Below, piece by piece: positions 3,128 to 4,712 of a stretch of DNA of 10,100 bases; the first letter of the stretch is position 1; each line of letters starts with the position of its first letter. The notes below the pieces were generated by a model that did not search any database, was not told the DNA's origin, and worked only from the letters and a program-made list of their open reading frames with translations. Source of the DNA: a virus (lineage: Duplodnaviria; Heunggongvirae; Uroviricota; Caudoviricetes); IMG/VR virus record IMGVR_UViG_2693429634_000014, positions 1-10,100 of that record; one strand, 5' to 3'. A program made the translations under genes and the position numbers.

Positions 3128-3397
3128 CTATTTCATCCCGCCAATATTTTCCCACGTCCCGTCAGCACGCAGGATTTGCAGCGGTCTTACCACACACTGT
3201 ATCTGCTTTTTATCTGCATCCAGTATCACCACCTGCGTAATCACCCTGTCCTGCTCCGGAATAATGCCATTCTCATCTGACTCCAGAATGTCTGCTGGTC
3301 CCAGTCGCAGTTGTGCTGTAAGTAACTCCCCGTTTTCACGGTCATCATGCTTTCCGCAACCGCACAGACTCTGCATAAGCTTTCTCAAAATATTCAT
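3128..3397 (-). CDS. Hypothetical small protein (89 aa from the ATG at 3397; the track ORF extends to 3529), translationally coupled to the side tail fibre gene; possible tail-fibre chaperone or accessory protein
   Basis: Seen in sequence: ATG at 3397..3395 sits 1 nt after the stf stop TGA (3401..3399) with GGAGAA 7-8 nt upstream; ORF ends 13 nt before the terminator hairpin. Product MNILRKLMQSLCGCGKHDDRENGELLTAQLRLGPADILESDENGIIPEQDRVITQVVILDADKKQIQCVVRPLQILRADGTWENIGGMK does not resemble lambda Tfa as I recall it. The longer 133-aa reading would overlap stf by 131 nt out of frame. Confidence 0.5.
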   Translation of the reverse strand: MNILRKLMQSLCGCGKHDDRENGELLTAQLRLGPADILESDENGIIPEQDRVITQVVILDADKKQIQCVVRPLQILRADGTWENIGGMK

Positions 3398-3398
3398 G

Positions 3399-4712
3399 TC
3401 ATTCTCCAGTTCTGCCTGTATCACTGCCCACTTCATCCAGTCCCTTAACATCCTGCCATGGCCCGTCACCAAACCTGACCTGCAAATGCTGAAAAAAACC
3501 CTGAACCCGTGTGGCATCTTTGGGGTCAAGAAAGGTCAGTCCGGTGATGAGCGCACCATCTGTACCCGGGAACCAGCCATGGCTGTTTGTCTCAATAATG
3601 CTCGCCGGCCCCAGACGAAAACGGATTTGTGTCTCCCCCGGGTCCCCCTTCGGTCCCTGAGGTCCGGTTGCCCCCACCGGGCCAGCCGCACCTGTTTCTC
3701 CTTTCGGTCCCTGTGGGCCTGCCGGGCCTGCTGCCCCGGTGTCTCCCTTTGGACCCTGTGGACCTGCATTTCCCGTCAGACCGGTCTCTCCCCGCTCTCC
3801 CCTGTCACCTTTCGGCCCCTGCGGGCCTGCCGGACCAGCATCACCTGCCGGTCCCCGTTCGCCGGTTGCCCCGACAGGGCCGGTGTCACCGCGCTCTCCC
3901 TTATCACCCTTCGGCCCCTGAGGACCCGCGGGCCCCTGTTCCCCCTTTGGCCCAGGAGGTCCCACCACGGTGGGGATTCGGTTTACGGCGTCTTCCGCCG
4001 CTATCCTGCTTTGTTCCGCTGACTGTGCGCTTTCTGCTGACTCCCGGGCTTTTTCTGCTGCGGTCGTTGCATCCCTGGCTGCATTACCGGCTGCACTTTC
4101 TGCCGTCTTTCTTGACAATTCAGCATCTGCTGCACTTTGTGATGACTCACTGGCTTTTTGAGCGGCCTCAGAGGCCGAGGACGAGGACGCCTCCTCTGAC
4201 TGCTTTGCTGAGGCTGCACTTTCTGCCGCCTGCCGGGCTGACTCCGATGCATATCCTGCTGAAGTGTCAGCATGTGCAGCGCTCTTTTCTGCCTGACTGG
4301 CTGATATGCCGGCATTCCTCGCTGACGTCTCCGCCTCTCCGGCATTCTTCTTCGCCTCCTCAGCGTTACGCGCCACCTCTTCCACCATCAGTTCAAAACG
4401 TCGCAGTGCCTCCGGACGGGCATCATCCTCCGTCATGGCACCGAGAAAATCATTCAGCGTACCGGGTTGAGAATCTTCATACACTGTGATGGTCCCGGCA
4501 TGTGACGGCGGGAATCCTTCCACCAACAGAATGACGCTGTACTGACCGTACTCAACGTCCATGCTGTAACGACCGGCTTCATCCGGATTTTCAGAGGCCA
4601 CCGTGTTCACCACCACCGTGCTGCTGGTCCGTCTGGCTTTCAGTTGAATGGTACAGTTCTCTACCGGTTTTCCTGTGCCGTCTTTCAGTACACCTGAAAT
4701 CTTTACTGCCAT
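3399..4712 (-). CDS. stf: Side tail fibre protein, mosaic: lambda Stf-like N-terminus, Ala/Ser/Glu-rich low-complexity segment, collagen-like Gly-X-Y tract, distinct C-terminal domain of about 78 aa
   Basis: N-terminus MAVKISGVLKDGTGKPVENCTIQLKARRTSSTVVVNTVASENPDEAGRYSMDVEYGQYSVILLVEGFPPSHAGTITVYEDSQPGTLNDF is near-identical to lambda Stf as I recall it. Likely start is the ATG at 4712 (track begins at a GTG at 4718), with GGGGTGA upstream. C-terminal part is unlike lambda Stf. Confidence 0.85.
   Translation of the reverse strand: MAVKISGVLKDGTGKPVENCTIQLKARRTSSTVVVNTVASENPDEAGRYSMDVEYGQYSVILLVEGFPPSHAGTITVYEDSQPGTLNDFLGAMTEDDARPEALRRFELMVEEVARNAEEAKKNAGEAETSARNAGISASQAEKSAAHADTSAGYASESARQAAESAASAKQSEEASSSSASEAAQKASESSQSAADAELSRKTAESAAGNAARDATTAAEKARESAESAQSAEQSRIAAEDAVNRIPTVVGPPGPKGEQGPAGPQGPKGDKGERGDTGPVGATGERGPAGDAGPAGPQGPKGDRGERGETGLTGNAGPQGPKGDTGAAGPAGPQGPKGETGAAGPVGATGPQGPKGDPGETQIRFRLGPASIIETNSHGWFPGTDGALITGLTFLDPKDATRVQGFFQHLQVRFGDGPWQDVKGLDEVGSDTGRTGE
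3639..3962 (-). repeat. Collagen-like repeat: 36 uninterrupted Gly-X-Y triplets within stf (Stf residues about 251-358)
   Basis: Seen in sequence: translation GPPGPKGEQGPAGPQGPKGDKGERGDTGPVGATGERGPAGDAGPAGPQGPKGDRGERGETGLTGNAGPQGPKGDTGAAGPAGPQGPKGETGAAGPVGATGPQGPKGDP; the DNA shows the corresponding 9-bp periodicity (GGnCCnnnn). This is what generates the Pro-rich antisense ORFs 3629..4489 and 3739..3921. Confidence 0.9.

What the first reader, a model, noticed from the sequence alone, without database searches (positions are those of the whole stretch)
3128..3529. Small ORF tightly coupled to the side tail fibre gene, with ambiguous start and no recognisable Tfa similarity
Lambda-like phages usually carry tfa (tail fibre assembly chaperone) after stf. 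Here the co-transcribed ORF is short (89 aa from the ATG at 3397, which sits 1 nt after the stf stop behind a GGAG motif) and its sequence does not look like lambda Tfa to me. It may be a distinct chaperone or accessory protein specific to collagen-type fibres. The same frame stays open upstream to 3529, overlapping the stf C-terminal domain by 131 nt out of frame, so a longer overlapping product cannot be excluded.
Basis: partly seen in the sequence, partly recalled or inferred. Interest (0 to 1): 0.45.

Follow-up and report, generated by a model that had tools for sequence, protein, structure and literature searches.

The report
Free-standing copy of fibre tip domain
The small gene after the side tail fibre gene is real, starts at the ATG at 3397 and encodes a free-standing copy of the fibre's own tip domain; this protein family is already described in Shiga-toxin phages, is dispensable in the laboratory, and has no known function.

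Summary
The stf stop is TGA 3401-3399, followed by one base, ATG 3397 and an 89-codon ORF ending at TAG 3128. GGAG lies 6 nt upstream and a strong terminator follows.

Residues 28-89 are a full-length Pfam PF06820 (Phage_fiber_C, "PfC") domain. This is the same domain that ends the collagen-like fibre encoded just upstream (35% identity). It is not a lambda Tfa (PF02413).

The family is already known. PGAP names it, Sp5 ORF68 (89 aa) was shown to be non-essential, and phi24B gp59 peptides occur in a virion proteome.

New results here:
- The ORF is under purifying selection (dN/dS 0.12). It has three parts: helix aa1-16 (0.10), free linker aa17-27 (1.5) and PfC (0.05).
- The 3398-3529 extension behaves as non-coding in that frame (1.75, like off-frame controls), so there is no longer overlapping product.
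- The fibre PfC and the small ORF co-occur in 296 and 297 phage records, and in a divergent Salmonella pair whose fibre fragment shows no collagen repeats.

Most likely it is a separately translated, dispensable fibre-tip accessory that works through PfC-type contacts. That mechanism is inferred. Interest is low to moderate.

The parts
3399..4712 (-). stf, a collagen-like side tail fibre of the EPclA architecture (PfN, coiled coil, collagen, PfC). It is 437 aa from ATG 4712; the ORF list starts it at GTG 4718.
   Evidence: Pfam matches: PF08400 (8.8e-70), PF01391, and PF06820 (7.6e-37) at aa 365-428. The length and architecture match EPclA in PMC3368898.
3435..3626 (-). PfC (Phage_fiber_C) domain at the C-terminus of stf. 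This is the fibre's distal knob and trimerisation module.
   Evidence: The PfC domain of the EPclA homologue was shown to be trimeric and to nucleate refolding of the collagen helix (PMC3368898).
3404..3407 (-). Shine-Dalgarno GGAG inside the last stf codons, 6 nt upstream of ATG 3397.
   Evidence: It is conserved in 79 of 80 related copies. An AGGAGG sits in the equivalent position in the Salmonella pair.
3128..3397 (-). Small ORF of 89 aa plus stop: a stand-alone PfC protein (phrog_576; homologue of Sp5 ORF68 and phi24B gp59).
3350..3397 (-). aa 1-16, a conserved basic amphipathic N-terminal helix (MNILRKLMQSLCGCGK).
   Evidence: AF2 predicts a helix at residues 3-12. dN/dS is 0.10. The motif MxI[LF]KK[IL] is kept in Salmonella homologues at 52% overall identity.
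3317..3349 (-). aa 17-27, an unconstrained and probably disordered linker.
   Evidence: dN/dS is 1.53. pLDDT is below 50 for residues 14-24. A 10-aa gap falls inside this segment (ORF aa 17-26) in the Salmonella subfamily.
3131..3316 (-). aa 28-89, the PfC domain of the small ORF, a paralogue of stf aa 365-428.
   Evidence: PF06820 matched 1-64/64 at E 5.2e-36. BLASTP against stf gives 35% identity, E 1e-10. dN/dS is 0.047 and variable sites by codon position are 3/2/17. AF2 predicts a beta domain at residues 30-85 with pLDDT 76-89.
3398..3529 (-). Upstream in-frame 'extension' that overlaps the stf 3' end. It is not coding in this frame.
   Evidence: dN/dS is 1.75, bootstrap 0.72-13, against off-frame controls of 1.4-2.3. 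stf dS is 0.094 in the overlap and 0.099 outside it. Variable sites fall on position 2 of this frame (4/9/3).
3086..3116 (-). Intrinsic terminator (GC-rich hairpin plus U-tract) that closes the stf and small-ORF unit.
   Evidence: The RNA fold gives -21.1 kcal/mol, z -4.2. It is annotated as a terminator at the same place in phage 434. The simple pattern scan missed it.

Best explanation
The ORF 3397..3128 is a separately translated 89-aa protein. It consists of a conserved basic amphipathic N-terminal helix (aa 1-16), an unconstrained flexible linker (aa 17-27), and a PfC domain (aa 28-89). The PfC domain is a diverged duplicate of the C-terminal knob of the collagen-like side tail fibre encoded immediately upstream. 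Translation starts at ATG 3397 by coupling or re-initiation at the stf stop (GGAG, 6 nt, ATG; stop and start 1 nt apart). Transcription ends at the hairpin just downstream. The ORF belongs to the already described family of Sp5 ORF68 and phi24B gp59 (PGAP name 'phage tail fiber C-terminal domain-containing protein').

Inferred mechanism: it folds like the fibre's PfC knob, probably as a trimer. It then acts in trans on PfC-tipped fibres through PfC-type contacts, as a dispensable accessory that aids or modulates formation or use of the fibre tip. It is not a stoichiometric virion component and not an obligate Tfa-type chaperone.

Shown here or in papers: identity, reading frame, start codon, selection, linkage to PfC fibres, expression of a homologue, and dispensability of a homologue. 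Inferred: trimerisation, the physical interaction with the fibre, and the functional role.
For: Domain identity: PF06820 full length at E 5e-36 in the ORF and 7.6e-37 in stf, 35% identity between them, and phrog_576 matched 89/89.

Independent translation: the SD plus ATG junction is kept in 79 of 80 copies. The divergent Salmonella pair has a different junction (ATG 14 nt inside the fibre gene, AGGAGG upstream), so only SD plus start is conserved.

Selection: dN/dS is 0.118 (bootstrap 0.04-0.19), split into 0.10 / 1.53 / 0.047 by module, with off-frame controls of 1.7-1.9. Third-position excess in the PfC part is 3/2/17.

Linkage: stf-PfC DNA matches 296 phage records and ORF DNA matches 297, with the same organism breakdown. 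The ORF follows EPclA fibres, 933W-type fibres and a Salmonella fibre fragment without collagen repeats, with fibre PfC 40% and small ORF 52% identical.

Expression: two peptides unique to the phi24B homologue gp59 were found in a purified virion preparation, 3 PSMs each, against 2267 PSMs for the fibre gp61. From this I infer trace, sub-stoichiometric amounts.

The PfC domain of the fibre is an experimentally shown trimerisation module (PMC3368898).

Structure: AF2 (pLDDT 73) gives helix, disordered linker and beta domain. The best Foldseek matches among viral models are phage tail fibre proteins (probability about 1, E 0.007-0.08, TM about 0.5).
Against: No interaction with the fibre has been shown. 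Co-folding could not be run here.

Deletion of the Sp5 homologue ORF68 leaves plaque formation and lysogenisation on K-12 intact, while the fibre gene is essential (PMC5155283). Recombinant EPclA trimerises alone (PMC3368898). Any assembly role is therefore auxiliary at most.

The PfC part is more conserved than the fibre's PfC (pN 0.006 against 0.02). That does not fit a host-range adhesin.

Some degraded prophages carry disrupted copies: the P0036 cluster of 762 sequences has a frameshifted leader, and L086 carries a pseudogene.

The sample used for intactness and dN/dS was the best 80 tblastn matches, so it leans towards intact copies.
Confidence: 0.5

Rival explanations
1. Free-acting knob. 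The protein works independently of the virion fibre. For example, it could be a soluble trimeric PfC knob released at lysis that occupies the fibre's receptor on debris or neighbouring cells. Alternatively it could act inside the lysogen or infected cell through its amphipathic helix.
For: The amounts in purified phi24B virions are trace. The Sp5 homologue is dispensable for plaque formation. The protein has two constrained modules joined by a free linker. Conservation is high and unlike a variable adhesin.
Against: It has no signal peptide. The putative lipobox Cys14 is not conserved and the h-region carries R/K. There is no PADLOC hit. The strict 1:1 linkage and translational coupling to PfC-bearing fibre genes across divergent fibres are more simply explained by a partner relationship.
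Confidence: 0.2
2. Silent reservoir cassette, as proposed by Mondal et al. 2016. The ORF is stored sequence used to replace the fibre's C-terminal domain by recombination and so vary host range. Its own product does not matter.
For: This was proposed for Sp5 ORF68 (PMC5155283). Rare chimeras exist in databases: P0171 (ORF N-half plus Stf-type C-half), P0062 (collagen joined to ORF-type PfC), and one copy with a 1-nt deletion that fuses the two genes.
Against: The start codon, SD and N-terminal helix are conserved and under purifying selection at the protein level. The two PfC copies share only 52% nucleotide identity and their longest identical run is 7 nt, too little for homologous recombination. 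Among 172 clusters related to the ORF-type PfC none exceeds 131 aa, so no full-length fibre carries it. P0062 sits at the very start of a 3.3-kb contig and is probably an assembly join. There are no flanking inverted repeats and no invertase. Peptides of the homologue are detected.
Confidence: 0.1
3. Fusion product. A +1 frameshift or an equivalent event at the stf stop (GAA TGA C ATG) joins Stf to the ORF and gives a minor fibre species with two tandem PfC domains.
For: The ORF lies in the +1 frame of stf. UGA-C is a weak stop and GGAG lies just upstream, loosely resembling prfB. The phi24B authors put such fusions in their MS database under the label 'Spike or just gp59?'.
Against: There is no slippery codon: tRNA-Glu on GAA cannot re-pair on AAU (from the sequence). 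The SD abuts the P-site codon instead of lying 3 nt away as in prfB. Mondal et al. found no frameshift signal. The Salmonella pair has a different junction and stop (TAA, 14-nt overlap). No junction peptide was found in the stored part of the phi24B data, whereas the normal gp61 C-terminal peptide has 47 PSMs. The fusion row exceeds the gp61 row only in a low-molecular-weight band (25 against 24).
Confidence: 0.05
4. Longer overlapping product. Translation starts upstream (TTG 3529, ATG 3517, 3451 or 3436) and gives a 102-133-aa protein that overlaps the stf PfC domain out of frame.
For: The frame is open for 44-46 codons in 76 of 80 copies. Some gene callers and the phage cdtI record annotate a 102-aa form.
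Against: dN/dS in that frame is 1.75 (bootstrap 0.72-13), the same as off-frame controls. stf synonymous divergence is unchanged in the overlap. Variable sites fall on codon position 2 of that frame. In the Salmonella homologue the ORF begins at the first start codon after a stop. The openness of the frame is uninformative at about 95% identity.
Confidence: 0.03

Closest known systems
Sp5 ORF68, the 933W-type small 'tail fiber' ORF, and phi24B gp59 (phrog_576; PGAP 'phage tail fiber C-terminal domain-containing protein')
   Same: All are 89 aa and 90-97% identical to the window ORF. All have the same position directly after the PfC-ended fibre gene, and the same PF06820 domain.
   Different: Nothing material. 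The window copy follows a long-tailed lambdoid EPclA fibre rather than the podovirus EPclB fibre. Non-essentiality and peptide detection were shown only for the homologues.
PfC domain of EPclA/EPclB collagen-like prophage fibres (Ghosh et al. 2012, PMC3368898)
   Same: The same Pfam domain, with conserved core residues (R31, G33, G44, T54, L59, Q74, G80, W82). In the fibre it is a trimerisation module that nucleates the collagen triple helix.
   Different: Only 35% identical. The ORF copy is free-standing and is preceded by a helix and linker instead of a collagen shaft. It lacks the 11-residue C-terminal tail of the fibre copy. Trimerisation of the free copy is untested.
Lambda Tfa / Caudo_TAP tail fibre assembly chaperones (PF02413; also Mu U and P2 G)
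   Same: A small gene immediately downstream of the fibre gene and translationally coupled to it. It is exchanged together with the fibre tip module. Phage 434 annotators named the ORF 'tail fiber assembly chaperone', apparently by position, since the record cites no similarity.
   Different: No sequence similarity and half the size. The ORF is homologous to the fibre tip itself, which Tfa proteins are not. The homologue is dispensable, whereas, from my own knowledge, Tfa is needed for lambda side fibres.
Alternative fibre-tip cassettes (Mu G segment, P1 C segment)
   Same: A second copy of a fibre C-terminal module lies next to the fibre gene.
   Different: There are no inverted repeats and no invertase. 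The second copy has its own SD, start codon and N-terminal module and is selected as a protein.

Membership tests
Pfam PF06820 Phage_fiber_C (PfC) | Match to the family HMM above the gathering score, over the full model | tested here: met
   123.3 bits against a cut-off of 25, E 5.2e-36, model positions 1-64/64, residues 28-89.
Pfam PF06820 Phage_fiber_C (PfC) | Located at the C-terminus of a long tail fibre protein | tested here: not met
   The domain is free-standing in an 89-aa protein. The fibre upstream carries its own copy.
Pfam PF06820 Phage_fiber_C (PfC) | Forms trimers (shown for the EPclA PfC) | not testable with these tools
   Only monomer prediction was available. Trimerisation was shown for the fibre's PfC in PMC3368898.
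Small stand-alone PfC proteins (phrog_576; Sp5 ORF68 / phi24B gp59) | Full-length similarity over about 89 aa, including the N-terminal leader | tested here: met
   phrog_576 matched 1-89/89 at E 3.5e-60. Clusters of hundreds to more than a thousand 89-aa E. coli proteins are 91-96% identical.
Small stand-alone PfC proteins (phrog_576; Sp5 ORF68 / phi24B gp59) | Lies immediately downstream of a fibre gene that ends in PfC, and is followed by a terminator | tested here: met
Small stand-alone PfC proteins (phrog_576; Sp5 ORF68 / phi24B gp59) | Dispensable for plaque formation and lysogeny | not testable with these tools
   Reported for Sp5 ORF68 only (PMC5155283).
Lambda Tfa / Caudo_TAP (PF02413) | Sequence membership (HMM or pairwise similarity to lambda Tfa) | tested here: not met
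   No PF02413 hit at E<=1. Lambda Tfa itself scores 2.8e-43. BLASTP of the ORF against lambda Tfa gives no alignment at E<=100.
Lambda Tfa / Caudo_TAP (PF02413) | Gene directly after the fibre gene and coupled to it | tested here: met
   Stop and start are 1 nt apart and the SD lies inside stf.
Lambda Tfa / Caudo_TAP (PF02413) | Required for assembly of the cognate fibre | not testable with these tools
   Indirect evidence argues against it. Sp5 delta-ORF68 is infectious although the fibre is essential, and rEPclA trimerises alone.
Bacterial lipoprotein (considered because of LCGC at residues 11-14) | Signal peptide with a hydrophobic h-region and a conserved lipobox cysteine | tested here: not met
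   The cysteine is at position 14. The h-region contains R10 in most copies, or K/H in the Salmonella copies. Cys12 and Cys14 are absent in P0263 and P0264.
Programmed frameshift fusion (prfB-like +1) | Conserved slippery codon, stop context and correctly spaced SD at the junction | tested here: not met
   There is no re-pairing codon. The junction is not conserved in the Salmonella pair. No signal was found by Mondal et al..
Invertible fibre-tip cassette (Mu G / P1 C) | Inverted repeats flanking the cassette, plus a site-specific invertase | tested here: not met
   The only inverted pair found (3825-3844 / 4618-4637, 85%) lies inside stf. No invertase domain was found in the window ORFs that were scanned.

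The most novel reading that the evidence does not exclude
The 89-aa protein would define a separate class of tail-fibre accessory. It would be a stand-alone mimic of the fibre's own trimerising tip domain, tethered to a conserved amphipathic helix. It would act in trans on PfC-tipped fibres, for example by transiently templating, capping or masking the knob, through a mechanism unrelated to Caudo_TAP chaperones. This would explain why it is carried by essentially every PfC-fibre phage, including the Stx phages, despite being dispensable on K-12.
Probability: 0.35. Interest if true: 0.55.

Novelty: already known. Interest (0 to 1): 0.3.

Why it matters
This gene sits in about 300 of the 50,697 deposited phage records (mostly Stx-converting phages, plus 434 and cdtI). 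It occurs about 7,200 times in 698 of 5,426 complete E. coli genomes, with a median of 11 copies per carrier genome. Its function is unknown. Databases label it variously 'tail fiber protein', 'tail fiber assembly chaperone' or 'hypothetical'.

This work settles three practical points: the correct start codon, that no longer overlapping product is supported, and that the gene is not a Tfa. It shows that the gene is selected as a three-part protein and that it travels with the PfC tip rather than with the collagen shaft.

If the protein does act on the fibre tip, it bears on an open question raised by the phi24B structure paper, namely what the conserved lateral fibres of Stx phages do. It would also matter to anyone engineering lambda-type particles with these fibres.

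Tried and rejected
- Lipoprotein or secreted protein (LCGC motif): rejected. The h-region is charged and the cysteines are not conserved in Salmonella homologues.
- Longer overlapping product: rejected by dN/dS, by codon-position counts and by the Salmonella start.
- Frameshift fusion: no slippery site and the junction is not conserved.
- Invertible cassette: no inverted repeats and no invertase.
- Homologous-recombination reservoir: 52% nucleotide identity and a longest identical run of 7 nt. The apparent collagen-ORF fusion P0062 lies at a contig start.
- NCBIfam and PADLOC: no hits.
- Exhaustive HMMER search: only 96 hits. The long multi-repeat hits (SprB and CarboxypepD_reg proteins) are spurious beta-repeat matches.
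- The genome-contig scan gave only 2 loci, one of which is probably contamination.
- Literature searches for phage 434 fibre work, for locus tags and for stf chaperones found nothing relevant.
- The terminator pattern scan missed the terminator after the ORF. It was confirmed by folding instead.
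Full report
**Context.** All relevant genes lie on the minus strand and form the end of a lambdoid late operon.
- I: 10042..9401.
- J: 8923..5444.
- lom: 5376..4777.
- A collagen-like side tail fibre gene, stf: 4712..3399.
- The small ORF: 3397..3128.
- A terminator, then an NleB/SseK-family effector gene (2951..1971) and an IS3 remnant.

The stf product has the EPclA architecture of Ghosh et al. 2012: PfN, coiled coil, 111-residue collagen domain and PfC, 437 aa in all.

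**Observation.**
- The stf stop is TGA 3401-3399, followed by C 3398 and ATG 3397. The 89 codons end at TAG 3130-3128.
- GGAG lies at 3407-3404, 6 nt before the ATG.
- The frame is open upstream to TTG 3529.
- A hairpin with a U-tract (3116..3086; -21.1 kcal/mol, z -4.2) follows the ORF. It is annotated as a terminator in phage 434.

**What it is.** Residues 28-89 match Pfam PF06820 (Phage_fiber_C, 'PfC') over the whole model (E 5.2e-36). The fibre itself ends in the same domain (aa 365-428, E 7.6e-37).
- The two copies are 35% identical (BLASTP 1e-10). They share a conserved core (R31, G33, G44, T54, L59, Q74, G80, W82).
- The whole 89 aa match phrog_576 end to end.
- The ORF has no similarity to lambda Tfa. 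There is no PF02413 hit at E<=1, whereas lambda Tfa scores 2.8e-43, and BLASTP finds nothing.

The ORF is not an orphan, however: it is a free-standing paralogue of the fibre's own tip.

**Already known.** The family is annotated and has been described in papers.
- PGAP calls these proteins 'phage tail fiber C-terminal domain-containing protein'. Phage 434 annotators call the ORF 'tail fiber assembly chaperone' without citing any similarity.
- Mondal et al. 2016 (PMC5155283) described the Sp5 homologue ORF68 as an 89-aa PfC-only ORF among the non-essential late genes, while the fibre gene ORF67 is essential. They found no frameshift signal and suggested an 'intragenomic reservoir' for fibre variation.
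- The proteome supplement of a 2026 phi24B cryo-EM preprint contains two peptides unique to the homologue gp59: VITQVVILDADKK and the C-terminal ADGTWENIGGMK. Each has 3 PSMs, against 2267 PSMs for the fibre gp61.
- That search database also held hypothetical gp61-gp59 fusions labelled 'Spike or just gp59?'. The main text does not discuss gp59.
- From these counts I infer that the protein is made but is present in purified virions only in trace amounts. This is a rough inference, and the stored file is truncated.

**Start codon and the overlap.** I aligned 73 distinct sequences, representing 80 copies from IMG/VR, phage 434, cdtI and the window.
- The junction GGAGAATGACATGAA is nearly invariant, and 79 of 80 copies keep an 89-aa ORF.
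- Nei-Gojobori dN/dS for the ORF from ATG 3397 is 0.118 (bootstrap 0.04-0.19). The other two frames of the same DNA give 1.7-1.9.
- The 3398-3529 extension read in the ORF frame gives 1.75 (bootstrap 0.72-13), the same as off-frame controls.
- Synonymous divergence of stf is the same inside the overlap (0.094) as outside it (0.099).
- Variable sites in the overlap fall mostly on position 2 of the extension frame (4/9/3). There are only 16 such sites, so this count alone is weak.
- In a divergent Salmonella homologue the ORF begins at the first possible start codon after a stop.

A longer overlapping product is therefore not supported. The 102-aa calls in some databases are over-extensions.

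Caveat: the 80 loci are the best tblastn matches and so lean towards intact copies. Disrupted copies do exist in degraded prophages (P0036 cluster, L086).

**Anatomy of the protein.** Selection divides it into three parts.
- aa 1-16: dN/dS 0.10.
- aa 17-27: dN/dS 1.53.
- aa 28-89: dN/dS 0.047.

AF2 agrees (second model, mean pLDDT 73). It predicts a helix at 3-12, a low-confidence segment at 14-24, and a six-strand beta domain at 30-85 with pLDDT 76-89.

Salmonella homologues are 52% identical. They keep the basic amphipathic N-terminus (MxI[LF]KK[IL]...) and the PfC domain, have a 10-aa gap within the linker (ORF aa 17-26), and lack Cys12 and Cys14. That rules out a lipobox or a cysteine motif.

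No solved structure resembles the model. Among predicted viral structures, the top nine Foldseek hits have probability of about 1, E 0.007-0.08 and TM about 0.5 over about 60 residues. The five of them that carry a name include four tail fibre proteins from Erwinia, Rhizobium, Pantoea and E. coli phages. This is consistent with a fibre-tip type of beta domain but is not decisive.

**Linkage to the fibre.**
- In 50,697 phage records, DNA of the fibre's PfC matches 296 records and DNA of the small ORF matches 297, with the same organism breakdown.
- The region occurs 7,199 times in 698 of 5,426 complete E. coli genomes.
- The ORF follows EPclA fibres and the fibres of 933W-type podoviruses.
- In Salmonella (L085) it follows a fibre whose visible 241 residues, at a contig end, show no collagen repeats. 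That fibre's PfC is 40% identical to the window's.
- In L085 the ATG lies 14 nt inside the fibre gene behind AGGAGG, and a terminator follows.

What is conserved is therefore the pair: a PfC-ended fibre plus a small PfC protein, with SD-start coupling. Neither the collagen shaft nor the exact junction is conserved.

**Rival readings.**
- Reservoir cassette. Start, SD and leader are conserved and selected. The two copies are 52% identical at the nucleotide level with at most 7 identical bases in a row. No ORF-type PfC is found on a protein longer than 131 aa. The one collagen-ORF fusion sits at a contig start. There are no inverted repeats.
- Frameshift fusion. The ORF is in the +1 frame and the stop is UGA-C. 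However, GAA cannot re-pair on AAU, the SD spacing is unlike prfB, and the junction differs in Salmonella. No junction peptide is present in the stored phi24B data, while the normal gp61 C-terminal peptide has 47 PSMs.
- Obligate chaperone. This is contradicted by the Sp5 deletion and by recombinant EPclA trimerising alone.
- Free-acting knob. This reading is not excluded.

**Conclusion.** The identity, frame and start of the ORF, its selection and its linkage to PfC fibres are established here. Its expression and dispensability rest on close homologues in two papers. The mechanism remains inferred: a probably trimeric mini-knob acting on PfC-tipped fibres as a dispensable accessory. The entity is already known, so the finding is ordinary as a discovery, although the function of a very widespread Stx-phage gene remains open.

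Noticed in passing
window 8990..9328 (minus strand), between I (10042..9401) and J (8923..5444): An AT-rich insertion of about 420 nt, where phage 434 has only 60 nt. It encodes a 112-aa protein with a textbook lipoprotein signal and lipobox (MNKTILFCTIIALTG|C) and has its own terminator-like hairpin. It matches phrog_914 (unknown function) but no Pfam or PADLOC family. Megablast finds nothing in 50,697 phage records, but 337 of 5,426 E. coli genomes carry it as 'hypothetical protein'. It looks like a moron and is a possible superinfection-exclusion lipoprotein.
   Followed up: partly
L018 4429..5213 (also L019, L023, L025, L026, L068, L021, L063): In several related phages an nleG-like effector gene downstream of the small ORF is followed by a second, partial copy (87% identical) of the small ORF's 3' end plus terminator. 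This suggests that the segment serves as a recombination anchor for exchangeable effector cassettes.
   Followed up: partly
window 851..1656 (minus strand): An IS3-family remnant. It has orfA (HTH_Tnp_1, 1656..1330), the N-terminal part of orfB (HTH_21, 1330..851), and an Rfam ALIL frameshift pseudoknot at 1375..1259 (119 bits).
   Followed up: no
window 1971..2951 (minus strand): A full-length SseK/NleB-family type III effector (arginine glycosyltransferase family; PF24688, E 1e-170) directly downstream of the fibre unit. Phage 434 has only a pseudogene fragment at the equivalent place.
   Followed up: no
phi24B proteome supplement (bioRxiv 10.64898/2026.04.10.717836): Peptides of the small-ORF homologue gp59 are present in the purified virion data but are not discussed in the text. 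The authors had tested hypothetical gp61-gp59 frameshift fusions. The fusion row exceeds the gp61 row only in a low-molecular-weight gel band (EA1829, 25 against 24).
   Followed up: partly
P0233 (565 aa, from the representative search): A collagen-containing protein from an unidentified source. It has four tandem repeats that end in '...VVVLDADxK...LQVRRADGTWxEIPALKG', strikingly like the second half of the ORF-type PfC. This may be a clue to the origin of the domain.
   Followed up: no
L083 (Xanthomonas pisi DSM 18956, 725-bp contig): A 725-bp contig in a Xanthomonas assembly encodes a protein 97% identical to this E. coli phage ORF. It is almost certainly contamination of that assembly.
   Followed up: no
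window 3264..4022 (plus strand): A 252-aa ORF antisense to the collagen and PfC part of stf. The cdtI record annotates its counterpart as a hypothetical protein (orf22). It is probably an artefact of the GC-rich collagen repeats.
   Followed up: no
window 5425..5406 and 4750..4729 (minus strand): Terminator-like hairpins bracket lom. The stf and small-ORF unit is therefore preceded and followed by terminators, and presumably depends on Q-antiterminated late transcription. No sigma-70-like promoter was found in 2900-5500.
   Followed up: no
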